Part shown: piece by piece, positions 20,867 to 64,000 of the stretch
Position numbering within the stretch: position 1 is the stretch's first letter
How the letters are laid out: the number at the start of each line of letters is the position of its first letter
Assembly (NCBI GenBank): GCA_030390025.1
Contig: JASTWF010000033.1
Location: forward strand, 6,202,001-6,266,000
Length of the DNA: 64,000 nt
From: Squalus acanthias
Lineage: Eukaryota
Reading direction: 5' to 3'
The notes under the pieces: generated by a model
What the model was told of the DNA's origin: nothing
The model's database searches: none
The model's input: only the letters and a program-made list of their open reading frames with translations
Position numbers and translations under genes: made by a program

Positions 20867-20904
<38 letters not shown>

Positions 20905-21104
20905 CAGGGACAGAGGGAGATTGAGAGAGATACAGGGATAGAGGGAGATAGAGAGAGACAGGGACAGAGGGAGATTGAGAGAGAGACAGGGACAGAGGGA
21001 GATTGAGAGAGAGACAGGGATAGAGGGAGATAGAGAGACAGGGACAGACGGAGAGAGAGATAGAGACAGATAGAGAGAGAGAGAGAGAGAGGGAAAGGGG
21101 GAGA

Positions 21105-21138
<34 letters not shown>

Positions 21139-21460
21139 CAGGGACAGAGGGAGTTTGAGAGAGATACAGGGATAGAGGGAGATAGAGAGAGAGACAGGGA
21201 CAGAGGGAGAGTGAGAGAGAGACAGGGACAGAGGGAGATTCAGAGAGAGACAGGGATAGAGGGCGGGAGAGAGAGAGACAGCGAGGGAGATAGAGAGAGA
21301 GACAGGGACAGAGAGAGAGAGAGAGAGGGGGACCGAGGGAGAGAGAGCGAGAGAGAGACTGGGTTAGAGGGCGATTGAGAGAGAGAGACAGGGATAGAGG
21401 GCGATAGAGAGTGAAACAGAGGGAGGGACAGGGAGAGGGGCACACAGCGAGAGAGAGAGG
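18081..21460. repeat. ~3.4-kb polypurine GA-rich low-complexity tract
   Basis: GAGACTGGGGAGAGA-like units in the first ~2.1 kb, then GAGACAGGGA(C/T)AGAGGGAGAT(T/A) units. Confidence 0.95.
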
Positions 21461-37200: not shown

Positions 37201-37540
37201 GTGGGCTGGGGAGGAGTCGAGGATATTAGGTGGGGTGGGGTGGAGCTGAGGATATTAGGTGGGGTGTGGAGGAGCTGGGGATATTAGGTGGGGTGGGGAG
37301 GAGCTGAGGATATTAGGTGGGATGGGGAGGGGCTGAGGATATTAGGTGTGGTGGGGAGGAGCTGAGAATATTTGGTGGAGAGGAGCTGAGGATATTAGGT
37401 GGGGTGGGGAGGAGCTGAGGATATTTGGCGGGGTGGTGAGGAGCTGAGGATATTAGGATGGTGGGGAGGAGCTGAGGATTTTATGTGGGGTGTGGAGGAG
37501 CTGAGGATATTAGGTGTGGTGGGGAGGAGCTGAGGATATT
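25298..37540. repeat. G-rich 29-bp satellite, consensus GAGGAGCTGAGGATATTAGGTGGGGTGGG (roughly 400 units)
   Basis: Direct reading of unit spacing; interrupted once, at 25926-26669. Confidence 0.97.
25926..26669. mobile_element. MITE family B, copy 1 (744 bp, PIF/Harbinger-related), inserted in the satellite
   Basis: Imperfect TIRs GGGCCGAAAATTGATC / GATCAATTTCTGGGCC; 3-bp TSD ATT (25923-25925, 26670-26672); closely similar copy at 51565-52305. Confidence 0.85.
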
Positions 37541-37547
37541 CTAAAAG

Positions 37548-40500
37548 GTTAGATTAGAATCACCACCGGTAATGTTAGGTTAGAATCACCACCAGTAATG
37601 TAGTAGTAGAGTCACCACAAGTACTGTTCGAGTAGAATCACTACCAGTTCTGTTAGATTAGTATCACCAACAGTAACGTTAGATTAGAATCACCAGCAGT
37701 AATATTAGAGTAGAATCACCACTAGTAGTGTTAGATTAGAATCACCACAAGTATTGTTCGAGTAGAATCACCACCAGTAATGTTAGATAAGAATCACCAC
37801 CAGTAATGTTAGATTAGAATCACCAGCAGTAATATTAGAGTAGAATCACCACCAGTCGTGTTAAATTAGAATCACCACCATTATTGTTCGAGTAGAATCA
37901 CCATCAGTAATGTTAGACTAGAATCACCACCAGTAATGTTAGAGTAGAATCACCAACAGTAGTGTTTGAGTAGTGTCAACACCAGGAATGTTAGTGTTGA
38001 ATCACTACCAGTAATGTTAGAGTCGAGTCACCACAAGTAATGAAAAATTAGAATCACCACCAGTAATGTTAGATTAGAATCATTACCAGTAATGTTAGAG
38101 TAGAGTCACCACCAGTAATGTTAGGCTAGAATCAACACCAGTAATGTTAGATTAGAATCACTACCAGTAATGTTAGATTAGAATCACCAACGGTAATGTT
38201 AGATTTGAATCACTACCAGTAATGTTAGAGTAGAGTCATCACCAGTAATGTTATACTAGAATCAATACCAGTAATGTTAGAGTAGAATCACCAGCAATAA
38301 TGTTAAAGTAGAATCACCACCAGTAATGTTAGATTAGAATCATCACCAGTCATGTTAGATTAGAGTCACCACCAGTAATGTTAGAGTAGAGGGACCACCT
38401 CTAATGTCAGAGTAGAATCAACACCAGTAATGTTAGAGTAGAATCACCAACAGTAATGTTAGCTTAGAATCACCACCAGTAATATTAGAGAAGAATCACC
38501 ACCAGTAGTGTTAGATTAGAATCACCACCAGTAATGTAAGAATAGAGTCACCACCAGTAATGTTAAATTAGAATCATCACCAGTAATGTTAGATTAAAAT
38601 CAGCACCAGTAATGTTAGAGAACAATCACCACCAGTAACATGAGAGTAGCATCAGCACCAGAAATGTTAGTTTAGCATCACCACCGGTATTGTTAGATTA
38701 GTATCAACACCAGTCATGTTAGATTAGAGTCACTACCAGTAATGTCAGAGTAGAATCACCACCAGTAATGTTAGAGTATAATCACCACCAGTAATGTCAA
38801 ATTAGAATCAACACCAGTAATGTTAGAGTAGAGTCACCACCAGTAATGTTAATTTAGAATCACCACCATTAATATTAGAGTATATTCACCACAAGTAATG
38901 TTAGATTAGAATCACCACCACTAATGTCAGAGTAGAATCACCACCAGTAATGTTAGAGTAGAATCACCAACAGTAATGTCAGATTAGAATCACCAGCAGT
39001 AATATTAGAGTAGAATCACCACCAGTAGTGTTAGATTACAATCACCACCAGTATTGTTCGAGTAGAATCACCTCCAGTAATGTTAGGTAAGAATCAACCC
39101 CATTAATGTTAGGTTAGAATCACCACCAGTAATGTTAGATTAGAATCACCACCAGTAATGTTAGAGTAGAATCAAAACCAGTAGTGTTAGATTAGAATCA
39201 CCACCAGAAATGTTAGATAAGAATCACCACCAGTAATGTTAGATTAGTGACACCACCAGTGATGTTAGAGTTGAGTCCCCACTAGTAATGTTAGAGTAGA
39301 ATCATCACCAGTAATGTTAAATTAGAATCACCACCAGAAATGTTCGAGCAGAATCACCACCAGTAATGTAAGAGTAGAATCACCACCAGTAAAGTTAGAG
39401 TAGAGTCACCACCAGTAATGTTAGAGTAGAATCAACACCATTAATGTTAGAGTAGAATCACCATCAGTAATGTTAGAGTATAATCACCACCAGTAATGTT
39501 AGAGTAGAATCACCACCAGTAATGTTAGAGTAGAATCACCACCAGTAATGTTAGTGTAGAGTCACCACCAGTAATGTTAGAGTAGAGTCACCACCAGTAA
39601 TATTATACTAGAATCACCACCAGTAATGTTAGAGTAGAATCACCACCAGTAATGTTAGATTATAATCACCACCAGTAATTTTAGAGTAGAATCAACACCA
39701 GTAATGTTAGAGTAGAATCACCACCAGTAATGTTAGATTATAATCACCTGCAGTAATGTAAGAATAGAGCCACCACAAGTAATGTTAGATTAGAATCACC
39801 TCCAGTGAGGTTAGATTAGAATCACCACCAGTAATGTTAGATTAGAATCACCACCAGTAATGTAGTAGTAGAGTCACCACAAGTACTGTTCGAGTAGAAT
39901 CAATACCAGTTCTGTTAGATTAGTATCACCAACAGTAATGTTAGATTAGAATCATTACCAGTAATGTTAGAGTCGAGTCACCACAAGTAATGAAAATTAG
40001 AATCACCACCAGTAATGTTAGATTAGAGTCACCACCAATACTGTTAGATTAGAATCACCACCAGTAATGTTAGATTACAATCACCACCAGTAATTTTAGA
40101 GTAGAATCAACACCAGTAATGTTAGAGTAGAATCACCACCAGTAATGTTAGATTATAATCACCTGCAGTAATGTAAGAATAGAGCCACCACAAGTAATGT
40201 TAGACTAGAATCACCTCCAGTGAGGTTAGATTAGAATCACCACCAGTAATGTTCGAGTAGAATCACTACCAGTTCTGTTAGATTAGAATCACCAGCAGTA
40301 ATATTAGAGTAGAATCACCACCAGTAGTGTTAGATTAGAATCACCAAAAGTATTGTTCGAGTAGAATCACCACCAGTAATATTATACTAGAATCACCACC
40401 AGTAATGTGAGAGTAGAATCACCACCAGTAAAGTTAGATTAGACTCACCACAAGTAATGTTAGCTTAGAATAATTACCAGTAATGTTAGATTAGAGTCAC

Positions 40501-43500
40501 GACAGTAATGATAGAGTAGAATCACAACCAGAAATGTTAGTTTAGAATCACCACCAGTAATGTTATTTTGGATCACGACCAGTACTGTTCGAGTAGAATC
40601 ACCACCAGTCATGTTAGATTAGAATCACTACCAGTAATGTTCGTATAGAGTGACCACCAGCAATGTCAGAGTAGAATCACCACCAGTAATGTTAGAGTAA
40701 AATCACCACCAGTACTGTTAGATTAGAATCACCACCAGTAATATTAGAGTAGAATCACCACCAGTAATGTTAGATAAGAATCAACACCAGTAATGTTAGA
40801 TTAGAATCACCACCAGTAATGTTAGATTAGAATCACCAACAGTAATGTTAGATTACAATCACCACCAGTAATTTTAGAGTAGAATCAACACCAGTAATGT
40901 TAGAGTAGAATCACCACCAGTAATGTTAGATTATAATCACCTGCAGTAATGTAAGAATAGAGCCACCACAAGTAATGTTAGACTAGAATCACCTCCAGTG
41001 AGGTTAGATTAGAATCACCACCAGTAATGTTAGATTAGAATCACCACCAGTAATGTAGTAGTAGAGTCACCACAAGTACTGTTCGAGTAGAATCACTACC
41101 AGTTCTGTTAGATTAGAATCACCAGCAGTAATATTAGAGTAGAATCACCACCAGTAGTGTTAGATTAGAATCACCAAAAGTATTGTTCGAGTAGAATCAC
41201 CACCAGTAATGTTAGATAAGAATCACCACCAGTAATGTTAGATTAGAATCACCAGCAGTAATATTAGAGTTGAATCACCACCAGTAGTGTTAGATTAGAA
41301 TCACCACCAGTATTGTTCGAGTAGAATCACCATCAGTAATGTTAGACTGGAATCACCTCCAGTAATGTTAGAGTAGAGTCAACACCAATAATGTTAGATT
41401 AGAATCACCACCAGAAATGTTAGAGTAGAATCACCACCAGTAATGTTATATAAGAATCACCACCAGTAATGTTAGCGTAGAATCACGACCAGTAATATGA
41501 GAGTAGAATCACCACCATTAACATTAGAGTAGCATCACCACCAGTTATGTTAGATTAGAATCACCACCAGTAATGTTAGATTAGAATCAGCACCAGTAAT
41601 GTAAGATTATAATCACCACCAGTAATGTTAGATTAGAATCACCACCAGTAATGTTAGAGTAGAATCACTACCAGTAGTGTTAGATTAGAGTCACCACCAG
41701 TAATGTTAGATTAGAATCAACACCAGTAATGTAGAAGTAGAGTCGCCACAAGTAATGTTAGAGTAGAATCACTACCAGTAATGTTAGAGTAGAATCACCA
41801 ACAGTAATGTTTAATTAAAATCACCACCAGTAATGTTAGAGTAGAGTCACCAGCAGTAATGTTAGAGTAGAGTCAACACTAGTAATGTTAGAGTAGAATC
41901 AACACCAGTAATGTTAGAGTATGGCCTCCACAAGTAATGTTAGAATAGGATCGCAAACTTTAACGTGAGATTAGAGTTACCACCAGTAATATTAGATTAG
42001 GGTCACCACCAGCAATGTTAGAATAGTGTCGCCACCATTAATCCGAGATTTGAGTCAACAGCAGTAATGTTAGATTAGAATCAACACCAGTAATGTTAGA
42101 TTAGAATCACCACCAGTAATGTTAGATTTGTGTCACCACCAGTAATGTTAGAGTTCAGTCCCCACCAGTAATGTTAGAGTAGAATCATCACCAGTGATTT
42201 TAAATTAGGGTCACCACCATTTATGTTAAACTAGAATCACCACCAGTAATGTTAGATTAGAATCAATACCAGTAATGTTAGTGTAGACTCACCACCAGTA
42301 ATGTTAGATTAGAATCACTACTAGTAATATTACAGTAGAATCAACACAAGTAATGTTAGATAAGAATCACCACCAGTAATGTTAGAGTAGAATCAACACC
42401 AGTAATGTTAGAGTATAATCACCACCAGTAATGTTAGATTATAATCACCAGCAGTAATGTAAGAATAGAGCCACCACAAGTAATGTTAGAGTAGAATCAC
42501 CACCAGTGATGTTAGATTAGAATCATCACCAGTAATGTTAGATTAGAATCACCACCAGAAATGTAGTAGTAGAGTCACCACAAGTAATGTTCGAGTAGAA
42601 TCACTACCAGTTATGTTAGATTAGAATCACCAGCAGTAATGTTAGATTAGAATCACCACCAGTAATGTAAGAGTAGAGTCACCAGAAGTAATGTTAGATT
42701 AGAATCACCACCAGTAATGTTAGATTAGAGTCACCTCCTGTGATGTTAGAGTAGAGTCACCACCAGTAATGTTAGAGTTGAATCAACACTAGTAATGTTG
42801 GAGTAGATTTAACACCAGCAATGTTAGTGTAGGGTAACCACAAGTAATATTAGAATAGGATCGCAACCATTAATATGAGATTAGAGTCACCACCAGTAAT
42901 GTTAGATTAGAATCACCACCAGTAATGTTAGATTAGAATCACCACCAGTAATTTTAGATTAGTGTCACTGCCAGTAGTGTTAGAGTAGAGTCACCACCAG
43001 TCATGTTAGATTAGAGTCACCACCATTCATGTTAGAGTAGAGTCGCCACCAGTAATGTTAGAGTAGAATCAGCACCAGTAATGTTAAAGTAGAATCGCCA
43101 CCAGTAATGTTAGAGTAGAGTCACCACCAGTAATGTTAGAGTAGAGTCAACACCAGTAATCGTCGAATAGAATCACCGCCAGTAATCTTAGAGTAGAGTC
43201 AACACCAGTAAAGTTAGAGTAGAGTCACCATCAGTAATGTTAGAGTAGGGATACCAACTGTAATGTTAGAGTTGAGTCAACACCAGTAATGTTAGAGTAG
43301 AGTCCCCATCAGTAATGTTAGAGTTGAGTCACCTCCAGTAATGTTAGAGTAGAGTCACCACCAGTAATGTTATAGAAGCAGCACCACCAGTAATTGTAGA
43401 GTAGGGTCATCGCCTGTAATATTAGAGTAGGGCCCTCATCAGTAATGTTAGAGTAGAGTTACCACCATTTATGTTAGATTAGGATCACCACCAGCAATGT

Positions 43501-44140
43501 TGGCGTAGAGTCACCGCCAGTTATATTAAAGTAGGGTCACCACCAGTAATGTTGGAGTAGAGTCACCACCGGCAATGTTAGAGTGTGGTCACCGCAGTAT
43601 TGTTAGAACAGGGTCACCACCAGTAATGTTATAGTAGAGTCACCATCAATAATGTTAGCATAGAGTCACCACCAGTAATGTTAGAGTAGGGTCACCACCA
43701 CTAATGTTAGAGTGGAATCACTACCAGTAATGTTAGAATAAAGTAACCACGAGTAATGTTAGAGTAGAGTCACCACCAGTAATTTTAGAATAGCGTCACC
43801 ATCAGTAATGTTATAGTAGAATCACCACCAGTAATGTTAGAGTAGAATCACCACCGCTAAAGTTAGATGAAAGTCACCACCAGTAATGTTAGATTAGAAT
43901 CACCACCAGCATCGTTAGAGTAGAGTCACCGCCAGTAATGTTAGAGTATGGTCACCACCAGCAATTTTGGAGTAGAGTCACCACCAGTAATGTTATAAAT
44001 GTGTCACCACCAGTAATGTTAGAGTAGAGTCACCACCAGTAATATTAGAGTAGTTTCACCACCATTAATGTTAGAGTAGGGTCACCACCAGTAATTATAG
44101 TGCAGGATGACCAGCATAATGTTAGATTGGGCCCTCACCA
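37548..44140. repeat. 26-bp satellite, consensus AGAATCACCACCAGTAATGTTAGA(T/G)T (roughly 250 units)
   Basis: Direct reading; abuts the 29-bp satellite and decays towards about 44.2 kb. Confidence 0.97.
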
Positions 44141-49766: not shown

Positions 49767-52686
49767 GACTCATAGATTAATCGAGTCATTACGGCACAGA
49801 AGGAGACCATTCGGTCCATCGAGTCCATGTCGTCTGTCTGTAGACCAATCCAGTCAGTCCCATTCCCCCGCTCTATCCCCGTAGCCCTGCAAGTTTATTT
49901 CCCACAAGTGCCTGTCCAGTCTCCCCTTTAAAACATTGAGTGTCTCCGCTTCCAGCACGTCCGACCGCAGCGAATTCCAAGTCAGCAACACTCACTGTGT
50001 AAAAATGTTTTTCCTCACATCTCCCCTGTATCTCCTGCCCAAAACCTTAAATTTGTATCCCCTATGTCCTTGTACCATCAAGTAGTAGGAACAGTATTTC
50101 CCCGTCTAGCCTATCCAAACCCGTCATAACCTTGTACACCTCTATCAAATCACACGTCAACCTCCTTTTCTCTAATGAAAACAAATCCAGCTTCTTCAAC
50201 CTGTACTTGTAGCTAAGATTCCCCCATCCCCGGAACCATTCTGGTAAATCTCCTCTGCCCCATCTCAAGGGCCTTCACATCTTTCCGAAAGTGTGGTGAC
50301 CAGAACTGGATGCAATACTCCAGTTGTGAGTTGTGGCCTAACCAGCGCTTTATAAATGTTCAGCATAACGTCTCTAATTTTGTACTCAATACCGCTATTT
50401 ATGAAGCCCAAGATCGCATATGCTTTGTTAACGGCTCTCTCAATATATTCTGCCACCTTCAGGGACCTATGCACATTAACTCCCAGGTCCCTCTGTCCCT
50501 GCACACTCTTTAAAACTGTGCCATTAAGTTTATATTGCCTCTCCCTGTTCCTTCTGCCAAAATGCATCACCTCACACTTCTCTTTGTTAAATTCCATCTG
50601 CCAATTGTCTGCTAGCCTTTCTATGTCCTGTTGCAGCCAATTGATATCATCATCACTGTTTGCCACACACCCAAGTTTGGTGTCATCAGCAAATTTAGAA
50701 ATTCTACTCTGTATTCCAATATCCAGGTCGTATCAAAAAAGCATTGGCCCCAGAACTGATCCTTGCAGAACACCACTGTCTACCATCCTCCAGTCTGAAA
50801 AACGGCCATTTACCACAACTCGCTGTTTTCTGTCCTTAAGCCAATTCCTTATCCAAGCTGCAACTGACCCACCTATTCCATGAGCCTTAATTTTGTTAAG
50901 CAGCCTTCTATGTGGTACTTTGTCAAACGCCTTCCGAAAATCCATGTAGACAGCATCCATTGTGTTCCCTTCTTCAATCCTCTTTGTTACTTCATCAAAA
51001 AATTCAATTAAATTATTCAAACACGATCTGCCTTTTAAAAATCCGTGTTGGCTCTCCTTAATTAGCTTAAAGCTCTCCAAATGCCCGTTAATTTTTTCCT
51101 TGATTATTGTTTTCAAACTTTACCCACCACTGATGTTAAACTGACCGGCCTGTAGTTACTAGGATTGTCCTTACGCCCTTTCTTGAACAATGGTGTCAAA
51201 TTTGCCACTTTCCAATCCTCAGGCACCTCCCCCGCATCTAGGGAAGATTGGAAAATTATGGCAAGCCCGCCGCCATCTCCTCCTCCATTTTCCATAGCAA
51301 CCTGGGATGGATGCCATCTGGACCAGACGCCTTGTCCACTCTAAGTATACCCAGCCTTTCTCGTACATCCTGTCTATCTATTTTCACCCCTTCCATTGCT
51401 TCAACCTTTTCCACTTCTACCGATATTTTATCAGCATCCACCTCCTTAGTAAACACCGATACAAAGTACTCATTTGGTATTCTAGCCTTGCCCTGCCCCT
51501 CTAAGCATATATCAACTTCTTTGTCACTAATAGGATCCACCCCGCCTCTTACTAACTGCATAATGGGCCAAAAATTGATGCCGCTACGCGAGAGTACGCA
51601 CTGTGTACTCTCGCGTATTCTCTCTCCAATTGCCGGTTTTCTGCATGCACTGCGCATGCGCTGAAAACCGGCACTTGGTTTTTGGAAAAGGGGGCGGTTC
51701 CTCGGTGCACCGCGTGCGCGCTACAGGCTGCGCGCACGCTGTGCACTTCATGCTTTGGACGCGCAGGTAAGGACGGAGGATTTTAGAAATGAAAAAAGGA
51801 GGAGTAAGACCCACTTTTAACAAGGTAAGTAGTGAATTAAGTATTATTTTGAATTTTTTTTAACAGGTATATGTTTTTTAGAGACTTTAAAGACAGGTAA
51901 GTTTATTTTTATAACTTTTTAAAAGATTTTCAATTTTTTCAAAAAATTAATTTTTTATTTAAAATGGTTAATTTATTTAACTATACTTATTTTATTAATG
52001 TGATGTTTTTTTTTAATTTAATTGAGGTTTAGCTGTTATTTTGGGGGTGTGTAAGATTCATAGCTTTCACAGCACGTATGTGAAACTTATGAATGGAAGA
52101 TGGTGTGCTGCCATTGGCTCGAACTGAGTCACGTAATCCCACAGCTCGCACGAATTCACTACGCCGGTGGGATACGCAAGCACTGCCCAGCTGATGTCTA
52201 GAACATCAAGTTCGTGCGAGCTGGATCTGAAAAAGCCAACGCGGAGTGAGAGATCGCGCCTACTCCTTACCCCCGCGGGAACAGAGCGAGATCAATTTCT
52301 GGGCCAATGTCTTTATGCCGGTAGAAGATTTTTGGGTTCCCTGTTATGTTAACCGCCATTCTACTCTCATATTCTCTCTTTGCCAATTTTAGTTTCCTCT
52401 TCACATCCCCTCTCAACTTATTGTATTTGGTCTGGTTCTCCCTTGAAGAATTCACCTGACATGCAACACACACACTCTTTTTTTGTTTCATCATCTTCTC
52501 TATCTCCCTTGACATCCAAGGAGCCCTTGCTTTGGTTCGCTTGCCCTTCCCTCTTGTTGGAATGTACCTAGCCTGTACTTGGAGCATCTCCTCCTTAAAG
52601 ATCACCCATTGTTCCGTTACAGTTTTTCCTGTCAGTCTTTGGATCCGTTTTCCCCTGGCTAGATCGTTTCGCATCCCATTGAAGTT
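49767..52686 (-). mobile_element. 5'-truncated CR1 LINE containing MITE B copy 2
   Basis: ORFs 52267-52674, 51256-, 50733-51116, 50265-50666 and 50062-50268; CR1 3' tail near 49770-49830. Confidence 0.85.
51565..52305. mobile_element. MITE family B, copy 2 (741 bp)
   Basis: Same TIRs and body as 25926-26669; TSD AAT (51562-51564, 52306-52308). Confidence 0.88.
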
Positions 52687-53920
52687 AAACTGCTCATTAA
52701 GCCGCCTATCTTTGTATCTTCGTCAAAAATAGACATGTGGCTCTCAATCCCATCAACTAATTCGTTAATAAAAACGGTGAATAGTCGAGGCCCCAAAATA
52801 GATCCCTCAGAGACACCACTAGTCATATCCTGCCAATTAAAGTCGCTGTCCATTATCCGCACACTATGTCTCCTGTCGCTCAAACAATTTCCTATCCAGG
52901 ACAATAATTTGCCTTCACTTCCACGAGCTTCAACTTTACCTAACATCTTCTTACGTGGGACTTTATAAAATGTCTTTTGCTCCATGTCTATTAACTGATA
53001 ATGATTTGTGAACTGGGACTCACAATCCTCTTTGCTCCTCAACAGTTAATGGCTTCCTATTATTTAGTCTATCCATCACAGGTTCAAAATTAACAATTAA
53101 CCCAGTATGAACTGCTGTTTGTGGGGGTGAGTTACAGATTTCTACCACCCATTACATGTAGAAGTGTTTCCTAACTTCACTCCTGAAAGGCTTGGATCTA
53201 ATATTTAGGCTAAGTCAACTAATCCTATACTTGTGAATTATCGGAAATATCTTCTCTCTATCTAACCTATCAGTTCCCATTAATATCATGAATACTTCAA
53301 TCAAATCACTCCTTAAGCTTCTAATATCCAGAGAACACAATCCTAGTTTGTGTAATCTCTGCTCATAATTTAACACTTGGCCTCTATGTATCATTCTGGT
53401 AAATCTACTCTTCACTCTTTAAGTCTGATACTTCCTTCCTAATGTGTGATGCGCAGAAATGAACACAGTCCTCCAGGTCTGGTCTAACCAGTGTTTTGTA
53501 TAGGTGCAGCAGAACTTCTCCCCCTTATATTGTAGTCCTAAATATATAAATAACACCATTCAATTAGTCCTTTTGATCTTTTCTGTACCTGTCCATGACA
53601 ATTGAATGATATATGTACATGGACCCTTCAGTCTCATTGGACACCCACTGGTTCCAGCTTTTCACCATTTAGAAACTGTTCTGATCTCTCCATTTTAGGT
53701 CCGAAGTGGATGACCACACACTTGCTTATATTTAAATCAATTTGCCATAGATTTCACCAATCACTTAATCTATTAAGATCTCTTCTAATTTCATGGTTCC
53801 ATCTAAACTGCTTAAATGCCGCCTATCATTGTGTCATCGTCAAACTTGGATATGTGGCTCTCAATCCCATCAATAATGTCGTTAATAAAAGCGGCGATTA
53901 GTTGAGGCCCAAAATAGATC
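52687..53920 (-). mobile_element. Two adjacent old CR1-type RT fragments (52687-52975 and about 53110-53920)
   Basis: GVSEGSILGPRLF...FDED; SRFTRMI...LIEVF; SKFDDDT. The second fragment is cut at 53920. Confidence 0.7.
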
Positions 53921-54575
53921 TGTCCTGGTAAACTTGACTGGATCTCTATTTGACTAAATCTAAAAGCTTTGAGGGCAAGAGACTGCTTGACTAAAAACAT
54001 TTGCAAAACTTCTAATGAGCTGGTACATTTCCTTCAGAAGATAAGATCTTGAAAATTATGTGAGAACCTCAACAACCCTGCAGATGTGAAAAACAATGAC
54101 TCTCTCCAGTTCTTGGAGTCTTGCCTTGGTGAACTGAGCCTTAAAACAGATAGAGAGAGAGAAAGAGAAGAAAACAACATTCCCCACAGTTTGGGACATG
54201 AATGCTGGGGGCCAGTTGCCCAGTTTTGTGTTATAACTGTTATTGGACACTGTGATTCGGGACTATAATCGATGGTGACGTGGTCAGGTGCCAGTTACAG
54301 TTAGTCATACGTCTGTCATCGTTGAATTGACCTCCCATCTGGTGAATAGTATGTATGTGGTTTTACTTATAATCACCTGAGCTTAAAGTCACTGATTTTA
54401 GGTGCTTGCTTGTGATAAGTGCATGAATTGAGTACATTTTGTATTCTGGGAATTACTGGTAACCTCTTTTTGATTTTTAAGTAAACGAAGTTTCACAGAT
54501 TCATTGGGTTTTGTGTTGTCTGTTCCTCGAGTCTCAACTCTATAAACTCTCAGAGAATCAAAACGCATTAATGAT
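53921..54575 (+). repeat. Putative 5' LTR (~650 bp)
   Basis: Begins TGT exactly where the host LINE homology (AAAATAGATC|) stops and ends just before the PBS. No second LTR is available to confirm the boundaries. Confidence 0.55.
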
Positions 54576-54577
54576 TC

Positions 54578-54595
54578 TGGCGCCCGAACAGAGAC
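54578..54595 (+). promoter_or_regulatory. Primer binding site, tRNA-Lys(UUU)/Lys3 type
   Basis: TGGCGCCCGAACAGAGAC, 17/18 identical to the canonical Lys3 PBS TGGCGCCCGAACAGGGAC. Confidence 0.9.
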
Positions 54596-54622
54596 TCGTT
54601 CGGAACAAACAATGGCAAAACA

Positions 54623-56295
54623 ATGGATGAGTTAGTCAGGAAATATGTGAGAGCGAAGTTACGCCTCAGGGAGTCGTGGGTACGGGGCATTATTGATGGT
54701 GCTGACACAGTGGCTGAGGCTGAACAGCGGACCCAAGGGTCCACCTGCCGGCCAGGGATGGTAAAGGCCGTCTGGTTCATGGCAGACCAGAGGCAGTTTA
54801 AGAATGATGTGTGTAAAATGGCTCAGATGCATAAGGAGATGGAAGAGATGGTAAAGGATGTCAGTGATAAGGAAGCGGTTGTAAACCGGCTTCGACGGGA
54901 ATTAGAGGATGAAAGAGAAAGTAAGAAAAGGCTGAGGGGTCAGTTGGAAAAGGTAAAGGAGATTTGGTGTAATGAAGGGCAGTACCTTGAGAGCCACTGT
55001 ATAAATAATCAGAATCAGTGTGATGTTTGGTCAGAGGAGCCGGCCAACCAGAGAGATCGGGCAGAACGAGCAGAGAAAGCTAATGATGATCTGAAGGCTG
55101 CATTCAGGGTCACTCAGAGACAGGGTCTGGAGGACCGGAGTGCTGCCGGGGATCACACTGAATGTAAGGAATTGATTAGGGAGCTGGAGGAAAAGTTGAA
55201 GGTCCAGAGGGGTCTTGTGTGGGCCAGGACTCCTGTGATTGGAGGAGATTAGCAGGATAGCAAAGGGTTTGATAAAAATCACCCGGATGGGGGCCCACAA
55301 CCTGGAAATAGCCCACCGGAGGGAGTCAGACCCCCACCTATGGCCCCGATGTGACACAAACGGTGCCAGTACACCGGCCGTGCGGGCGGGTGAAGGAGCG
55401 TTGGGGGTGCTAGAGAGGGAGTTTGTGGTCCCGTATAATACTGGGGAGTTAAGGGAAATGTTCAGTGATTTGAACAAGCTGGTAATGGGAGGAGACCCCC
55501 AAGGGCATTATCTGGAGGGAGAACAGAGGGCCGCTTTAAATGACCTGGTTGAGGAGGTAAAGAAGCGCTTGCTGCTATTTACCCTGAGCTCCAGTGTCTT
55601 TGCTGGACTTCCACCAGAGAATAAGAGGGGAGAGGGCACTTACGATGCGCTAAAGTTGCGGGTTGTCCAGGTGTTGGGACAGGGTAAAGGGGATCCTTTT
55701 AAGGCGGTGGCGGACGTGGATCAAGGCCCAAACGAAGACCCGGCAGCTTTTGCTGACAGGTTATGGCCGACCTATAATGCAGCCATGGGAGGGGCGGTAA
55801 GGAGAGCAGACCTAGACGGAGAAGCGCGGAACCATTGGTTGCGGACACTGATCTCCCACAGTCTGCCCTATTTACAAGCTGCAATGGCGGACTTTGACCC
55901 AGAAGATATCAACAAAACTGAGGTCAGGGTGCTGCGGAAATTGACCCTGCGTTTCGAGGCGCGCCAGGTAGATAAAAAGCAAGGTAATAAGCAAGTCAAA
56001 AGGCAAGGTCTGTGAAATGAAGGGGGCAGGGGCATCCCGGAAGTGGCAACAAGAGGGGATTCAGGGAAAGAAGTGCTCTGCCTGTGGGATGGTGGGACAT
56101 TATGCACGGAACTGTAAAAGATCACTTAAGACAGACATGGTTGAGGCTGCCCCACGAGAGGCCGAATCTCAGCCCAGCGCCCCCAGTTATGAGGATTTCA
56201 TTAGATATGTAGCTAAGCAGATGAAGGAGCTTGAACCATCTCAAGGAAAGGTCCACGCAGCCCATGGGAAGGATCGCGGGGAGACCCGAGCATGA
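54623..56295 (+). pseudogene. gag: gag (coiled-coil N-terminus, capsid with MHR, CCHC nucleocapsid, PSAP motif), frameshifted
   Basis: VDQGPNEDPAAFADRL (MHR-like), CSACGMVGHYARNC and QPSAPSY; spread over ORFs 54623-55252, 55239-56015 and 56017-56295. Confidence 0.85.
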
Positions 56296-56391
56296 CGGGG
56301 AAGCGCCCAGCCCGAGTACCTGTGTCCACTCAGGTACGAAAATGAGAAGTCGCACAACACCAGGTTATAGTCCAACAGATTTATTTAAAAT

Positions 56392-56427
56392 TACAAGTTT
56401 TCGGAGCTGTCGCCCCTTCCTCAGGTA
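56392..56427 (-). ncRNA. Minimal hammerhead ribozyme motif in the Penelope 3' pLTR
   Basis: UAC-CUGAGGA-A-GGGGC(GACA)GCUCC-GAA-AACU-U-GUA; stem III is one base away from palindromic AGCU. Confidence 0.65.
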
Positions 56428-56672
56428 GAGTTACTGTGAGACAATCTACCAGAATTCACAGAATATAAATACAGAGAAAATGCAGAGTTTCAATCTTTCC
56501 CTACATCAAAGACACACTAAGAGCACAGCCAATACAATGAGATGTGTCCCAGGGGGTCCAACGTGTCAAAACACCTGCTGGCTGCATATCCTCTCCATTT
56601 GGGTTTGTTTCTTGTGTTTGTTTCTTGTGTTTGTTTTTTAAAAAAGCTGGAAAGACCGGCAACGATGTCAAG

Positions 56673-57725
56673 TCACGTTATGTAGCGTGACATGAACCCG
56701 ATATCCCGATTGAGGCCGTCCTCATGAGTGCGATACTTGGCTATCAGTTTCTGCTCGATGATTTTGCGTTGTCGTGTATCCCGAAGGCCGCCTTGGAGAA
56801 CGCTAACCCGCAGATCCGAGGCTGAATGCCCTTGACTGCTGAAGTGTTCCCCGACTGGGAGGCAACCCTCCTGCCTGGCGATTGTTGCGTGGTGTCCGTT
56901 CATACGTTGTCTCAGTGTCTGCATGGTCTCGCCGATGTACCATGCTCTGGGGCATCCTTTACTGCAACTTATCAGGTAGACAACGTTGGCCGAGTCACAT
57001 GAGTATGTACCATGTACCTGGTGGGTAGTGTCCTCACGTGTGATGATGGTATCTGTGTCCATGATCTGGCATGTCTTGCAGAGGTTGCCGTGGCAGGGTT
57101 GTGTGGTGTCATGGTCGCTGTTCTCCTGAAAGCTGGGTAATTTGCTGCGAACGATGGTACTTTTGAGGTTAGGCGGCTGCTTGAAGGCGAGTAGTGGAGG
57201 CGTGGGGATGGCCTTAGCAAGGTGTTCGTCGTCATCGATGACATGTTGAAGGCTGCGAAGAACATGGCGTAGTTTCTCCGCTCCGGGGAAGTACTGGACG
57301 ACGTAGGGTACTCTGTTGGTTTTGTCCCGTGTTCGTCTTCTGAGGAGGTCTATGCGGTTTTTCGCTGAGGCCCGTCGGAACTGTCGATCGACGAGTCGAG
57401 AGTCATATCCCGTTCTTACGAGGGCGTCTTTCAGTGTCCGTAGGTGTCCATCGCGTTCCTCCTCGTCTGAGCAGATCCTGTGTATTCGCAGGGCTTGTCC
57501 ATAGGGGATGGCTTCTTTAACGTGGTTAGGGTGGAAGCTGGAGAAGTGGAGCATCGTGAGGTTGTCCGTGGGCTTGCGGTAGAGTGAAGTGCTGAGGCGT
57601 CCGTCTTTGATGGAGATTCGTGTGTCCAAGAATGAAACCGATTCTGAGGAGTAGTCCATGGTGAGTTTGATGGTGGGATGGAACCTGTTGATGCTATCGT
57701 GTAGTCCTTTCAGTGATCCTTCGCC
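56673..57725 (-). CDS. Penelope ORF C-terminal part: RT thumb, Cys-rich linker, GIY-YIG endonuclease (open frame, no native start)
   Basis: SFLDTRI, LYRKPT, SSFHP, PCHGNLCKTC...C, NVVYLISC...YIGET...QRMNGH, VGEHF, EQKLI...GLN. Confidence 0.85.
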   Translation of the reverse strand, partial: GEGSLKGLHDSINRFHPTIKLTMDYSSESVSFLDTRISIKDGRLSTSLYRKPTDNLTMLHFSSFHPNHVKEAIPYGQALRIHRICSDEEERDGHLRTLKDALVRTGYDSRLVDRQFRRASAKNRIDLLRRRTRDKTNRVPYVVQYFPGAEKLRHVLRSLQHVIDDDEHLAKAIPTPPLLAFKQPPNLKSTIVRSKLPSFQENSDHDTTQPCHGNLCKTCQIMDTDTIITREDTTHQVHGTYSCDSANVVYLISCSKGCPRAWYIGETMQTLRQRMNGHHATIARQEGCLPVGEHFSSQGHSASDLRVSVLQGGLRDTRQRKIIEQKLIAKYRTHEDGLNRDIGFMSRYIT

Positions 57726-60700
57726 GTGATCCTTCTCCACATCATGACCACTCAGGTACGGTGATTGGGGAAGACCGTGTGTAGACATCCTGAGTGAGGG
57801 CGAGAGAGGGGACTATCTGGTAGACACTGGAGCGTCAAGCAGGGTAGATCCACTCTCCCTCCCCGATGTCGACTCCCTGGTCAAGTGGCGCCCCCTATGT
57901 TTTAGGAGGTTTCACGGGTAACTCAGCAGCTGGGGCGGTCTCAGAACCTATAATCTTCAGAGTCGGACCCCTGCAAACAAAGTGGAGATGTTTACGAATG
58001 AAATGGGATCAGCCAGGAATGGGAGTGCTGGGCTCTGACTGGATGTTGGCTCACAATGTGACAGTGGATATGGATAATAACTGTTTGTGGGGCGGAGTGG
58101 ACTGTGGTGAAGCAGTAATCGTTATACCCCCGAGAAATGGAGAAGCGTGGGTGGTAACACATGCGGGACCCGATGACTGAGAAACACTAACGGCCAGGGT
58201 GCCCGAGAGGAATCAAACCGCAGTGCAGAATGTCAAGGGAGCTTGTGCTACCCACAGACATGATTGTGGAAGGGTGACAGAGTAGAGGTGGGTGTGGGAG
58301 GTGAGCCAATGTCCCGGCCCCAGAAACAGTGCACGTTCCCCAAGGAAGCAGAGAGAGAGACTGAGAAAAAGCTGTTCCGTCCTTAGTAGAACAAGGGACC
58401 CTGAGACCTATTGTGACGCATGTTAACTCTCCTGTTTGGTCATGAATGAAGACAGACAATTCCTGGCGGATGGTTGTAGATTACAGAGTCTTGAATAAAA
58501 CCATCCCTGCTTGTGCTCCCACAGGAGCAGCTGCGATTGCTTTAATCGGCAACATTCCCAGCTCTGTCCCTGTGTTCCCAGTACTGGACATATCTAATGG
58601 ATTCTGGTCAACTCCCTCACACCCGGAGGACCAGTTTGCTTTTACCTTTAAAGTTCAGCAGTATGCGTGGACTTGTTTGCCACAGGGGTTCCACAATAGC
58701 CCGTCTATTGTCCACCAGTGTATGGCTAACAGCCTATCAGAATTCAGTCAGCCCGGCCAGCTTGTGCAGGCTGTAGATGATTTACTGCTGTTCTCAGATA
58801 GCGAAGAGGAACATGAGGAACTACTGCAGGAATTGTTAGAATTGCTTGCAGCCGTAGGTTTAAAGGTAAACCCCAAGGAGGCACAGATAGGGCAAAGAGA
58901 GGTTCAGTTTCTTAGACTGTCTATTCTACCAGGGGAGCGCGCGATAGACGAAGCAGAGCGCAAAACTGTCCAGGAATTGCACGGCCCGGGTTCAATAGCT
59001 GCTCTCAGATCATTCCTGGGTCTGACAGGGTACTGTAGAGAATTTATTGAGTATTAGGCAGCGACGGCAGCTCCTTTGCTGAGATTACTCAGAAAGGGAG
59101 TGGTATGGGATTACGATGAGCGCTGTGAGGAAGCTTTTGTAAAGTTGAAAAAGGACCTACAAACAGCCCCAGCATTGGGAGCTGGAGACCCTAAGAAGGA
59201 CTTCTTTTTGGAAGCAGCGGCAACAGACGCCAGTCTGAGTGTTGTTTTAATGCAGGAAGTGAATGGGCGTCTGAGACCAGTTGCTCATGTCTCCAAAGTG
59301 CTATCTGAGCTGGAGAAGGGATACTCTACCTGTGAGCGGCACTTGCTGGCCACATTCTGGGCAGAGAAGCATTTTGCCATATTCCCGGGGACCCAGCCTA
59401 TCACTCTCCTTACCCACCACACGCCAACCCGCCTCCTGTTAGAAGGCCGGATTAAGCAGGGAAACGTGTCAAGTACTCGGGTAGCTACATGGACCCTACA
59501 GTTAGAAGGGATGAACCTGAAAGTGAAACCAATAAAGGATCCGAAATTAGCACCCAGCCTTATATATATGGGGGCCCCCACACTTGTACAGTCGAGGGGG
59601 TGTGGGAAGCAGAAGGCGGATTCAAACCTGGTATCCACCCTGAAGGGACAGACATATATGTGGATGGGTCTAGTTTTGTGGAAAAGGGGGAACGTAAAAC
59701 AGGATGTGGAATTTACGACCCACAGAAAGGAATGGAAGTGACGATTAAGTTACCCACCAGTCTCAGTGCTCAGCAGGCCGAGTTAGCAGCCGGAACTTAT
59801 GTGGTAACACATCCCACCGATTTCCCCCGCCCTATACGATCTGCTCTGACTCTATGTTTACATATAATTCTTACACAGAATATTTGGCGATTTAGGCTAG
59901 AAGAGGTTTTAAATCAGCAGATGGCAAGTCACTGGTTACCGCTCCAATGTTGGCAACCATAGCGGAAGTCATAAGAAGAGGAGGCGAGGATTACTATATC
60001 CATAAGGTCAAAGCCCACTCTAAAGCAGAACCCAGATGGGAGGGAAATAGGAAAGCAGACGAGCTTGCTAAGGTGGGAGCGGACAGAGGGGTCCCGTGGG
60101 ACCCGTTTCAATCGGGAGTGGGAGCAGCCATCACTCCGGCTATTACTATTCCGCTTCCCCCGGATATCAAAACAATACAGCTGACAGATGTGGCGCTAAA
60201 ATCTGTCCTCAAGGAAAGAGAAGCAGGTCAGATTGTAGAAGGGCCTTATGGGGCCAAAGATGTAAACGCCAGGGAAGGTATGTTGTTCAAAGGAGAGAAG
60301 TGGATTGTGCCCGAGGGATACAGGGAGGAATTCATGCAGCTAGCTCACGGGGGACCGGGGTCTGGACACCCCGGACCCGAAACAATCTGTAAGCTTGGCG
60401 AGGAGGTAGGGTGGTGGCCTCATCTGAGGAAAGACATAGAAGATTAGTGTAAAACCTGTTTAGTGTGTGCTGCTAACAATCCTGAGCCACATAAAAGAAA
60501 GGCTCCCCTCGGACACCCGCGTCGACCAGAGGGACCGTGGCAGTGTGTCCAGATAGATTTTATCGGACCCCTGCCCAACACTAAGAAGGACAATAAATAT
60601 TGTCTAGTCCAAGAGGAGAATTTTACCAAGTGGGTCGAAGCTTTCCCATGCAAGGCAGACACAGCATTGTGGACGGCCAAGACCCTAGTTAGGGAGGTAT

Positions 60701-61621
60701 TTTCTAGATTGGGGCTCCCTCGATTGGTAGAGTCCGACCAAGGGAGTTATTTTACAGGGCAAGTGATGCAAGCCACCCTGAAATTGTTTGCAATTGAAGG
60801 GAAATAGCACGTAACCCCCAACCCGCGGTCATCAGGGATTGTGGAAAGAATGAACCGCACGTTGAAGTTGGCCCTGTGAAAGGAATTAAACAAACAGCAA
60901 ACTAAGTGGGATGAGGTACTTCCCCAAATCCTTATGGGGATACACAGTAACAAATCCAAAGGAGCGGGTCACTCCCCTCATGAATTGGTAACAGGGAGAC
61001 CCATGCGAACCCCCACACACCTGTTGACCCCCACTCTGATAAACAAATGAAATAAGTCACTCGGGACAAATTCCTGAGTGACCTGTGGGGAACTTTAAAG
61101 GAACTAAACTTGAGAGCCGCCCACAACATTGGGAAGACACCCCAACGCAACAGATTACACCTGACTCCGAGTAAACCCCAGGAGTGGGAACTAGAGAGCC
61201 AGGTAATGGTATGAAACTATGCGAGGGTGGGAGTTTTCGAACCCCTCTACAAGGGACCGTATAACATTGTTGACAAAGCTTGTCCTCTGGTATACGCGGT
61301 TCAGTTACCTAAGAAAATCAAATGGTTTCACATTAACCAGATGAAGCTTTTTCAGCCCACAAGCAGGTCAGGAAGACAGCAGGCCACGATCATGAGCATG
61401 GTGAGACTGACTCAGCCGCTCCAATGGGATGATGAAGAAGGGGGCCTAATGCAGCGCTCCCACCTGAGGCACCTTCGTGTGACGAGCTGCCTCCCCAGGT
61501 ACAGGATGGTGGTTACAATCTGAGGCAAGGACCTCGGAAACGGCCAAGGCGGTCCAGTGAATAGTCAGTGCAGAGCCTAAAAGACCAATGGTGAGAAGAA
61601 GGGAGGCGGGACTGGGAGTAA

Positions 61622-61649
61622 CTCTCCGCTTTGTTCCCCTCTTCCACAG
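61622..61649 (+). promoter_or_regulatory. Candidate splice acceptor for a subgenomic (env-like) mRNA
   Basis: CTCTCCGCTTTGTTCCCCTCTTCCACAG|G just after the integrase, 20 nt before an ATG in good context (GAAATGG, 61669). Confidence 0.6.
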
Positions 61650-61668
61650 GCCAGAACAAGGCAGAGAA

Positions 61669-62562
61669 ATGGGGAGGATATTTTGGTTGCTGTGTGACAC
61701 AGCGCTCCATCTCGAAAGGGCAGCAGGAACTCATGGGGAAGCATCCAGCGATTCAAGTTAGGACAGTCAGATTACCATTGCCCAGTAACTCCGCCCCAAG
61801 GTATCGCTCGGGAGGTTGCCCTCCGATCTATCAAGGGTATGTGCGACACACGTTGTTCAGGAATAGTCCGGGTAACCACATACACGGTCCAAGAAGGGAG
61901 GGGAATATGTATAAAGTGTAAGAGTGGGACAGTGAATCAGCCGCGTGTATGGTTCATTCAGGCAAAGGTGGGTGACAATACTAGCTACCGCCAGATAGGA
62001 GACCCTTGGGGATAGAATGGGAGAACAACTCAATCGGAAGTCCATGGGGAAACCATGTTGTGTTGGCCACGGTGGGGGCGGGAGCCTGAGGGTATATATG
62101 GATGTGTAAACCCTCGACCAGGCCTACTGAAGAATTAGGTCAATCTTGGGTCCGAATTCCCGGTTTGCAGCCTTTCTCCTGCGTTTGTGTCCGGTGCAGA
62201 AAATGCCCCCCCCCTTATCAATGGATGCTGGGTGAAAAGGAGGGAGGGCTGGGCCATGAAATGTGTGTTACTGATCATGTATCGGAATGTGAAAACCGAA
62301 CCATAGATACCAGAGAATTCAAATTGAAAGTCCGTTCTAAATTCCACCCACCCCCCGCAAATAAAACACAATCGCGGGAAGAACAAGAAGAAACCCGGGT
62401 TGTCTCCCAAACACACTCCGGGGCAGACAAATGGGTTAGTGGTAGTCCCAACTCGGGTATTATACCATGATGTGCCTCACAAGTTGGTGCCTGTGATATT
62501 AAATCTGACCGAGGTGGGAATACCGGACTGGTGCAACCCAGAAACAGCGCGATTATATGGGA
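61669..62562 (+). pseudogene. Putative env/surface glycoprotein N-terminal part (signal peptide, Ig-like domain, Cys-rich segment); decayed and cut by CR1
   Basis: MGRIFWLLC...AAG; VQEGRGICIKC-x10-W...LCWPRWGREPEGIYGC; RTRR in one frame near 62380; GLVVVPTRVLYHDVPHKLVPVILNLT...WC. Confidence 0.5.
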
Positions 62563-64000
62563 GTCATAGAGTCATAGAGTTATAAAGCACAGAAAGAGGT
62601 CCTTCGGCCCATCGTATCTGCGCCGGCCATCAAGCCCTATCTATTCTAATCCCATTTTCCTGCACTTGGTCCGTAGCCTTGTATGCTATGGCGTTTCAAG
62701 TGTTCATCTAAATGCTTCTTGAATGTTGTGAGGGTTCCTGCCTCTACCACCCTTTCAGGCAGTGAGTTCCAGATTCCAACCAAACTCTGGGTGAAAAAGT
62801 TTTTCCTCAAATCCCCTCTAAACCTGCTGCCCCTTACCTTGAAACTATGCCCCCTGGTTATTGAGCCCTCTACTAAGGGGAACAGTTCCTTTCTATCTAC
62901 CCTATCTATGCCCCTCATAATTTTGTACACCTCAATCAGGTCCCCCCCTCAGCCTTCTCTGCTCGAAGGAAACCAACCCCAGCCTGTCCAGTCTATCTTC
63001 ATAGCTGAAACGCTCCAGCCCAGGTAACACCCTGGTGAATCTCCTCTGCACCCTCTCTAATGTAATCACATCCTTCCTATAGTGTGGCGACCAGAACTGC
63101 ACACAATATTCCAGTTGTGGCCTAACTAGCGTTTTGCACAGCTCCATCATAACCTCCCTGCTCTTATATTCTATGCCTCGGCTAATGAAGGCAAGTATCC
63201 CATATGCCTTCTTAACTAACTTATCTACCTGTCTTGCTGCCTTCAGGGATCTATATACATGCACACCAAAGTCCCTCTGATCCTCTGTCCTTCCTAGGGT
63301 CCTACCATTCATTGTTTATTCCCTTGCCTTGATAGTCCTCCCAAAATGCATCACCTCACACTTTTCAGGGTTAAATTCCATTTGCCACTGTTGTGCCCAT
63401 CTGACCAACCCGTCTATATGGTCCTGTAGCCTAAGGCTTCCCTCCTCGCTATTTACCACTCCACCAATTTTCGTGTCCTCTGCGAACTTTCTGATCATAC
63501 CTCCTACATTCATATCTAAATCATTAATGCACACTACAAACAGCAAGGGACCCAGCACCGATCCCTGCGGTACACCACTGGACACATGCTTCCAGTCACA
63601 AAAACAACCTTCGACCATCACCCTCTGCCTCCTGCTACTAACCCAATTTTGGATCCAATGTGCCAAATTGGCCTGGATCACATAGGCTCTTACCTTCTTG
63701 ACAAGTCTCCCATACCGGACATTGTCAAAAGCCTTACAGAAGTCCATGTAGACCACATCAACTGTACTACCCTCATCCACACACCTAGTCACCTCCTCGA
63801 AAAATTCAATCAAATTGGTTAGACATGATCTCCCCCTGGCAAAGCCATGATGACTATCATTGATTAATCCTTGCCTCTCCAAGTGGAGAGTAATTCTGTC
63901 CCTCAGAATGTTTTCCAATAATTTCCCTACCACTGATGTTAGGCTCACTGGCCTGTAATTCCCTGCTTTATCCCGACTACCCTTCTTGAATAATGGTACT
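62563..64000 (-). mobile_element. CR1 LINE 3' part, running off the window; interrupts the env-like region
   Basis: ORFs 63316-63948 (QGSVLGP, FAED), 62932-63312 and 62646-62930; tail GAGTCATAGAGTCATAGAG at 62563. Confidence 0.9.

What the first reader, a model, noticed from the sequence alone, without database searches (positions are those of the whole stretch)
61600..62562. Splice acceptor, signal peptide and furin-like site suggest a subgenomic env gene
Seen: a strong acceptor (AG 61648-61649), ATG 61669 encoding MGRIFWLLCDTALHLERAAG, a Cys-rich stretch, AGA-ACA-AGA-AGA (RTRR) near 62380, then GLVVVPTRVLYHDVPHKLVPVILNLT with an NLT sequon. The pieces lie in different frames. Established: retroviral env is expressed from a spliced RNA, and lokiretroviral Env resembles Mononegavirales fusion proteins. 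Inference: the last segment may be the start of such a fusion-protein module, cut by the CR1.
Basis: partly seen in the sequence, partly recalled or inferred. Interest (0 to 1): 0.7.

Follow-up and report, generated by a model that had tools for sequence, protein, structure and literature searches.

The report
Truncated env start, snakehead-like retrovirus fossil
This is likely the broken front end of the envelope gene of a dead endogenous retrovirus related to snakehead fish retrovirus (not a lokiretrovirus), cut off by a LINE insertion; its splice signal is real, but the 'furin site' lies in the wrong reading frame and the proposed measles-type fusion module could not be shown.

Summary
All motifs are present at the stated coordinates. 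The acceptor is the best of 590 AGs in the provirus (chance about 0.02). ATG 61669 has a strong Kozak context but only a weak signal-peptide core. RTRR is chance-level (0.61) and lies in a different frame from GLVVVPT…NLT, whose frame is open straight across it, so it is not that protein's furin site. In 4 of 4 runs, other copies continue past 62563 with shared non-LINE, non-LTR sequence, so the LINE cut an internal gene and a 3' LTR does not follow IN. The element is not a lokiretrovirus: its RT carries LPQGFHNSP, whereas 24 of 24 published loki RTs carry PFG, and its Gag aligns with snakehead retrovirus (SnRV). Best reading: the 5' part of a spliced env, with an arm of about 255 residues, then probably the start of an F-type fusion module. 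That last step is inferred only; no homologue or fold match was found for any env piece. This scan has already noted F-type envelopes on SnRV-like proviruses elsewhere in this genome (unchecked notes). This copy is a poorer, truncated example.

The parts
53921..54578 (+). 5' LTR (TG start, TATA-like 54264, AGTAAA 54480); no second copy in the window
   Evidence: sequence
54339..54347 (+). best donor-like site between TATA and gag (ctg|GTGAAT, GT at 54342); candidate major splice donor, untested
   Evidence: score 2.67 against 4.26 for SnRV's donor; matrix frequencies recalled
54351..54380 (+). short hydrophobic upstream ORF (MYVVLLIIT, stop); candidate SnRV-style leader signal peptide in the rival model
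   Evidence: rank 1 of 95 ATGs; P=0.05 in R-U5-like composition
54579..54596 (+). primer-binding site, tRNA-Lys type (assignment recalled)
   Evidence: sequence
54623..56295 (+). gag in three frame-shifted pieces: coiled-coil-like N-terminus, capsid, one CCHC knuckle
   Evidence: zf-CCHC E=0.0012; CA and NC pieces align to SnRV Gag, 0 of 300 shuffles each reach the score; N-terminal piece p=0.27
56339..57760 (-). Penelope-like insertion between gag and protease (label recalled from a GIY-YIG-like motif), with a 13-bp duplication
   Evidence: no Pfam support
57761..61523 (+). broken pro-pol: PR, RT, tether RNase H, second RNase H, integrase with SH3-like C-terminus
61626..61649 (+). polypyrimidine tract and splice acceptor; a second AG follows at 61653-61654
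   Evidence: rank 1 of 590, P=0.0235
61669..61761 (+). ATG in strong Kozak context and weak signal-peptide-like N-terminus (frame 1, stop at 61759)
61762..62432 (+). broken N-terminal arm of the likely Env; codon model prefers frame 0, then frame 2 (about 62210-62345), then frame 0; no homologue, no fold match
62380..62391 (+). RTRR: off-frame reading (frame 1) of a purine-rich stretch that reads as a basic patch, RGKNKKK, in the open frame 0
62433..62562 (+). GLVVVPT…NLT…DWCNPE segment, frame 0; inferred start of the fusion module
   Evidence: frame 0 scores 7.4 against -11.9 and -4.8; no database match
62563..64000 (-). LINE insertion that cuts the gene (CR1-type label recalled from its 3' tail)
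   Evidence: RVT_1 E=3e-29; tail repeats; other copies go on with different sequence at 62563

Best explanation
61600-62562 is likely the decayed 5' part of the env gene of a multi-copy endogenous retrovirus related to snakehead retrovirus, which would have been read from a singly spliced RNA and is cut at 62563 by a LINE. Mechanism, step by step. (1) Shown: LTR-PBS-gag-pol lie upstream, a strong acceptor sits 125 nt after the integrase stop, and other copies continue past the cut. (2) Inferred: a donor in the 5' LTR (best candidate 54342) was joined to 61650, making ATG 61669 the first start codon. (3) Inferred: a cleaved signal peptide sent the protein into the ER. (4) Inferred: about 255 residues formed an N-terminal, probably receptor-binding arm ending in a basic linker (frame 0, not the frame-1 RTRR). 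(5) Inferred from SnRV's layout: GLVVVPT… begins an F-type fusion module whose activating cleavage site, fusion peptide and anchor lie beyond the LINE. (6) Shown: this copy is dead (stops and frame changes in gag, pol and env, two insertions). Step odds: env start 0.85; ATG 61669 as start 0.6; F-type module 0.6.
For: Acceptor rank 1 of 590, P=0.0235. SnRV has a like acceptor at the same place, in phase with its env frame; chicken Ovex1's env-like ORF3 starts 11 bp after its splice site (PMC2717909, passages). Kozak ATG 19 nt after the acceptor (6.8% by chance). A codon model trained on the element's own gag-pol (63 of 65 held-out windows right) prefers frame 1 weakly for the signal peptide and frame 0 clearly for 62433-62562. 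Region covered in 4 of 4 runs; contigs in 4 of 4 runs (2, 6, 5 and 3 contigs) go on past 62563 with a shared sequence unlike the LINE tail or the LTR start (compared by eye); no LTR match after IN in the window. RT 65% identical to P0001 and 33-48% to vertebrate retroviral Pols and SnRV; Gag CA and NC align to SnRV. SnRV Env has about 500 residues with several basic sites ahead of its core, about 355 residues from fusion peptide to anchor, and no CX6CC: an F-type, not gamma-type, geometry (established knowledge).
Against: No homologue for any env piece. The 43-residue segment does not align to SnRV Env (p=0.66; targeted p=0.96); only 1 of 7 pieces does (p=0.008, 21 residues, uncorrected, in a frame the codon model does not prefer). 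Overall coding signal of the region is not above a Markov null (56 and 121 of 500; the reverse strand scores as well). The signal-peptide core is weak. RT kinship does not fix env type: L002, which groups with SnRV at 98/98 in the tree, has a gamma-type env (TLV_coat, CX6CC). SnRV Env's F fold was not shown here (model pLDDT 36). No RNA evidence for the splice.
Confidence: 0.6

Rival explanations
1. Env with an SnRV-style split signal peptide: the start codon and signal peptide come from a 5' exon (the hydrophobic ORF at 54351 in the LTR), spliced to the same acceptor, and ATG 61669 is incidental.
For: SnRV does this: a 41-nt exon at L001 180-220 encodes a hydrophobic leader, ends in a strong donor and is in phase with env. 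ATG 54351 opens the most hydrophobic start of 95 (P=0.05). Frame 2 is open from the acceptor to 61919, and a splice from the donor-like GT at 54402 would enter it (worked out by hand).
Against: The stretch lies upstream of the PBS, whereas SnRV's exon lies downstream of its PBS; it closes after 9 codons; the nearby donor is weak (0.24); R-U5 is T-rich (110 of 284); the codon model disfavours frame 2 over 61761-62012 (-8.2 against 0.7).
Confidence: 0.12
2. It is an env start, but of another type (for example gamma-type SU-TM), and the last segment is ordinary SU sequence, not the start of an F-type module.
For: No F match in any search; L002 in the same RT neighbourhood has a gamma-type env.
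Against: No piece resembles L002's env (7 of 7 p>0.3) or TLV_coat; Gag layout follows SnRV, whose Env is not gamma-type; unchecked scan notes report F-type Env on SnRV-like proviruses of this genome.
Confidence: 0.15
3. The acceptor serves an accessory ORF (61669 to about 62430) and env proper starts near 62430, or the region is non-coding.
For: SnRV is a complex virus with accessory ORFs (PMC12193657, passages); there is an ATG at 62431; coding signal over the arm is not significant.
Against: ATG 62431 is in frame 1 and closes at 62437; frame 0 is open across it from 62328; no comparable acceptor lies near 62430 (top 12 sites).
Confidence: 0.11
4. The element is a lokiretrovirus, and this is a loki Env with RTRR as its RXKR site.
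For: Dual RNase H and a coiled-coil ORF before capsid are also loki features (PMC7947760).
Against: RT has LPQGFHNSP; 24 of 24 loki RTs have PFG there; RTRR is out of frame and is not followed by a fusion peptide; 0 of 3 chondrichthyan genomes were positive in that paper (host of this window not tested here).
Confidence: 0.02

Closest known systems
Snakehead retrovirus (SnRV; L001, matched to the SnRV row of PMC7947760's alignment) and its ERV kin (clade Huo, PMC6001957; CmiERV lineage I, PMC4422223)
   Same: LPQGFH-type RT, coiled-coil-like Gag N-terminus, CA and single CCHC aligning to SnRV Gag, strong acceptor after IN, long N-terminal arm on Env
   Different: RT-tether only 33% identical; different PBS (Lys-type against SnRV's, recalled as Arg); leader of about 27 nt against about 235 nt; signal peptide probably after the acceptor, not in a leader exon; arm about 255 against about 500 residues; no significant env alignment
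Lokiretroviruses (Wang and Han, PMC7947760, PMC9040795)
   Same: dual RNase H; coiled-coil protein ahead of capsid; possibly an F-type Env
   Different: RT motifs differ in 24 of 24 published rows; loki Env is described as signal peptide, RXKR, fusion peptide, coiled coil and anchor, whereas here no RXKR lies in the coding frame
Foamy virus Env (PMC11468914)
   Same: canonical retrovirus with an F-type fusion core and two basic sites, the first ahead of the core: the likely analogue of the basic patch here
   Different: foamy RBD is inserted inside the core, upstream of the second furin site; here the extra sequence lies in front; Gag here has a CCHC knuckle; no foamy Env Pfam match
Chicken Ovex1 ORF3 (PMC2717909)
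   Same: SnRV-like Gag coiled coil; env-like ORF starting just after the acceptor of a singly spliced RNA; poor signal peptide
   Different: Ovex1 is intact and expressed and lacks a zinc knuckle; sequences not compared here

Membership tests
Retroviridae-type provirus | LTR-PBS-gag-pro-pol order with RT, tether, RNase H, IN | tested here: met
Retroviridae-type provirus | RT groups with retroviral Pols, apart from Gypsy | tested here: met
   7 Gypsy rows form a 100/100 set without the window; best identities are to vertebrate retroviral Pols
Lokiretrovirus | RT within the loki clade (PFG motif in all published rows) | tested here: not met
   24 of 24 loki rows PFG, window LPQGFHNSP; by motif only, no loki rows in the tree
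Lokiretrovirus | dual RNase H | tested here: met
   shared with canonical retroviruses, so not diagnostic
Lokiretrovirus | Env similar to PF00523 | tested here: inconclusive
   no Pfam hit for the pieces; only 43 codons of the presumed core are present
SnRV-related ERVs (clade Huo) | RT phylogeny with SnRV | tested here: inconclusive
   window pairs with P0001 (100/100); SnRV lies among its nearer rows but the joining branches are below starred support; no foamy, loki or ERV-L rows
SnRV-related ERVs (clade Huo) | Gag with coiled-coil N-terminus, CA and CCHC like SnRV | tested here: met
   CA and NC p=0.003 each; N-terminal piece p=0.27
Spliced retroviral env | splice acceptor near the end of pol | tested here: met
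Spliced retroviral env | spliced transcript observed | not testable with these tools
   no RNA holder listed
Spliced retroviral env | signal peptide | tested here: inconclusive
   weak hydrophobic core; SignalP not available
Spliced retroviral env | RX[KR]R site in the coding frame | tested here: not met
   the only RX[KR]R is in frame 1; the activating site is expected beyond the cut, so this lowers the RTRR claim, not the env claim
F-type class I fusogen | fusion peptide, HRA, HRB, TM anchor about 350-390 residues after the cleavage site | not testable with these tools
   would lie beyond 62563; no genome is held
F-type class I fusogen | sequence or fold match of the N-terminal core strands | tested here: inconclusive
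   no match; piece too short
Ig-headed Env (scan notes; Hotzel 2024) | Ig-fold domain in the N-terminal arm | tested here: inconclusive
   single-sequence model of 61734-62012, pLDDT 55, best Z 4.5, no Ig row among those shown; a decayed piece in one frame only

The most novel reading that the evidence does not exclude
This family's Env joins an F-type fusion machine to a roughly 255-residue Cys-containing attachment arm unlike any known domain and unlike the Ig heads noted on other proviruses of this genome. SnRV-related retroviruses would then swap unrelated receptor-binding heads onto a paramyxovirus-like fusogen, a one-chain counterpart of the paramyxovirus attachment-plus-F pair.
Probability: 0.25. 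Interest if true: 0.55.

Novelty: new member of a known kind. Interest (0 to 1): 0.25.

Why it matters
An F-type Env outside lokiretroviruses and foamy viruses would suggest this envelope is old and widespread among retroviruses, not a loki speciality. I found no paper stating this for SnRV-related ERVs. This locus cannot carry that claim: only 43 codons of the presumed core survive. Its use is as a further, divergent family whose N-terminal arm can be compared with the Ig-like arms noted elsewhere in the genome.

Tried and rejected
No genome is held, so the sequence beyond 64000 could not be read. Homologue searches without result: last segment against longer proteins, PDB sequences, ESM Atlas (best 0.83); Cys-rich piece against 1.84 billion representatives (0 hits); 61698-62012 in the Atlas (best 0.85, low recognition); SnRV Env core in the 5.8-billion set, PDB and viral contigs (itself only). 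Pfam on the env pieces: nothing below E=0.02. Related loci: 1 viral (SnRV) and 80 metagenome loci, all at 25-32% best-segment identity; no member of this family. Single-sequence fold of the SnRV Env core was poor (pLDDT 36); its hits (torovirus spike E=3e-4, a fish paramyxovirus F0 E=0.018) are not counted as evidence. Fold of 61734-62012: no Foldseek match at E<=0.001, best VIA Z 4.5. No RNA holder listed. Rfam: 0 matches in 52000-64000. No look-alike earlier findings by DNA. Cluster look-up gave no names. Rejected: RTRR as furin site; lokiretrovirus membership; 3' LTR directly after IN. By-eye likenesses to SnRV Env (GQ..CP..PPQG; basic patch then GL.P..TP) were not significant and are not used.

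Full report
Context. The finding lies at the 3' end of a decayed LTR element on the + strand: LTR 53921-54578, primer-binding site 54579-54596 (tRNA-Lys type, recalled), gag in three pieces with one CCHC knuckle, then PR, RT, tether RNase H, a second RNase H and integrase. A Penelope-like element (label recalled) sits between gag and protease inside a 13-bp duplication. A LINE on the - strand starts at about 62563 (RVT_1 E=3e-29). No genome is held. That the host is a cartilaginous fish comes from earlier scan notes and was not tested here.

Observation. The acceptor is the strongest of 590 AG sites in the provirus, and such a site appears in 2.35% of simulated 1.1-kb stretches. ATG 61669 follows 19 nt later with purine -3 and G +4 (6.8% by chance). 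Its hydrophobic core is weak: 1.86, rank 5 of 95 ATGs, against 3.06 for SnRV's signal peptide. RX[KR]R (P=0.61) and a sequon (P=0.96) are expected by chance when three frames are allowed, and Cys counts are alike in all frames.

RTRR is out of frame. It lies in frame 1, which has 20 stops in 61650-62562; frames 0 and 2 have 5 each. Frame 0 is open from 62328 across RTRR into GLVVVPT and reads there as a basic patch, RGKNKKK. A codon model trained on the element's own gag-pol picked the right frame in 63 of 65 held-out windows. It scores frame 0 at 5.1 against -4.8 for frame 1 over 62350-62432 (P=0.11 alone) and 7.4 against -11.9 over 62433-62562. Among other copies no indel is listed between 62352 and 62456 (7 rows listed), so the two motifs seem not to share a frame in the family either. 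Against over-reading this model: the whole region's coding score is not above a Markov null (56 and 121 of 500), and the reverse strand scores as well.

The gene went on. Of 16 runs listed, 13 hold part of the provirus; I laid 4 of them (four studies, three organism labels). All 4 cover the region with many variant contigs. In all 4, contigs that fit up to 62563 continue with a shared sequence (2, 6, 5 and 3 contigs; agreement 0.83-0.89) unlike the LINE tail or the LTR start. No LTR match lies after IN in the window. So the LINE cut an internal gene, and a 3' LTR does not follow IN directly. What those copies encode past 62563 is left open.

Not a lokiretrovirus. My first reading was loki; two scan notes prompted the test. 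In the published RT alignment, 24 of 24 loki rows carry PFG where the window carries LPQGFHNSP, like SnRV, foamy and gamma rows. That paper found loki in 0 of 3 chondrichthyan genomes. RT's closest relatives are an unnamed Pol (P0001, 65% over RT-tether) and 'NYNRIN-like' Pols of coelacanth, frogs and turtles. In a 30-row tree (P0011 dropped, under 250 aligned residues; no loki or foamy rows) the window pairs with P0001 at 100/100, apart from 7 Gypsy rows; its link to SnRV is below starred support. Gag CA and NC align to SnRV Gag (0 of 300 shuffles each); the coiled-coil piece does not reach significance (p=0.27). SnRV-related ERVs are known (clade Huo, PMC6001957; CmiERV lineage I in elephant shark, PMC4422223).

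What the env was like. SnRV (L001) gives the model: an acceptor after IN, about 500 residues with four RX[KR]R sites ahead of the core, about 355 residues from fusion peptide to anchor, and no CX6CC. By established knowledge that geometry is F-type; foamy Env, a canonical retroviral Env, is structurally F-like with two basic sites (PMC11468914). By analogy this locus has a signal peptide, an arm of about 255 residues, a basic linker and then the first strands of the core. The last step is inference. The 43-residue piece matched nothing and does not align to SnRV Env (p=0.66 and 0.96). One of 7 pieces gave p=0.008 over 21 residues, uncorrected. My SnRV Env model was too poor to show the fold. 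L002, grouping with SnRV at 98/98, has a gamma-type env, so kinship does not settle the type. The arm has no homologue among 1.84 billion representatives (one 119-residue piece searched) and no fold match (93-residue piece, pLDDT 55, best Z 4.5). Nothing supports the Ig head that notes describe on other proviruses of this genome, but a decayed fragment cannot exclude it.

Where translation started. SnRV's signal peptide comes from a 41-nt leader exon in phase with env. Here only about 27 nt separate PBS and gag, so such an exon would have to lie in the LTR. A hydrophobic 9-codon ORF at 54351 is a candidate (P=0.05), but its donor is weak, and the best donor-like site (54342) lies before it, which would leave 61669 as first ATG, as in Ovex1 (PMC2717909). 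I give the leader-exon model 0.12.

Papers seen. PMC7947760: main text parts 1-3 of 4, supplement searches and part 71 of 81 (file cut). PMC4422223: part 1 of 2; its supplements were not opened and may hold a comparable env. Passages only: PMC9040795, PMC12193657, PMC12583693, PMC11468914, PMC6001957, PMC10435555, PMC2717909, bioRxiv 2023.10.26.564294 and 2023.10.17.562709. Abstract, outline and one passage: bioRxiv 2024.03.17.585361. bioRxiv supplements are closed and may bear on vertebrate F-type Env. Searches found no paper stating an F-type Env for SnRV-related ERVs; subscription journals are largely missing from the library.

Verdict. A real but ordinary feature: the broken, truncated start of a retroviral env. 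New member of a known kind; interest 0.25.

Noticed in passing
window 56293-56338 and 57748-57921: Gag ends in TGA followed by CGG, and the protease frame is the same once the 1422-nt insertion is set aside, which suggests gag-pol readthrough at a UGA in a context recalled as leaky in alphaviruses.
   Followed up: partly
window 56339-57760: Penelope-like element on the - strand inserted between gag and protease, with an exact 13-bp duplication (CCACTCAGGTACG at 56326 and 57748; 0 expected by chance).
   Followed up: partly
window 61648-61660 and L001 6179-6189: The env acceptors of this element and SnRV look alike: CACAG then AACAAG in SnRV; CACAG, GCCAG, AACAAG here (tandem AGs). May be chance.
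   Followed up: no
L001 6164-6420: The N-terminus of SnRV Env shows, by eye, Ig-like motifs (VQLTC, a Trp, then D.ENTYQC); not folded or tested.
   Followed up: no
L001 180-226: SnRV signal-peptide exon upstream of gag, strong donor at 221, in phase with env.
   Followed up: yes
L002 168-5828 (and the like locus L003): An aquatic retrovirus-like contig in a metagenome assembly with open pol (1183 aa) and a gamma-type env (566 aa, TLV_coat, CX6CC).
   Followed up: partly
window 18079-21459, 25299-37540, 37548-44126: Large satellite arrays: GA-rich 17-mer, G-rich 29-mer (about 376 copies) abutting a 26-mer (about 253 copies).
   Followed up: no
proteins P0004-P0013, P0016-P0019, P0021: Retroviral Pols of this group are annotated in databases as 'NYNRIN-like' or 'Gypsy retrotransposon integrase-like protein 1', which hides them from retrovirus surveys by name.
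   Followed up: no
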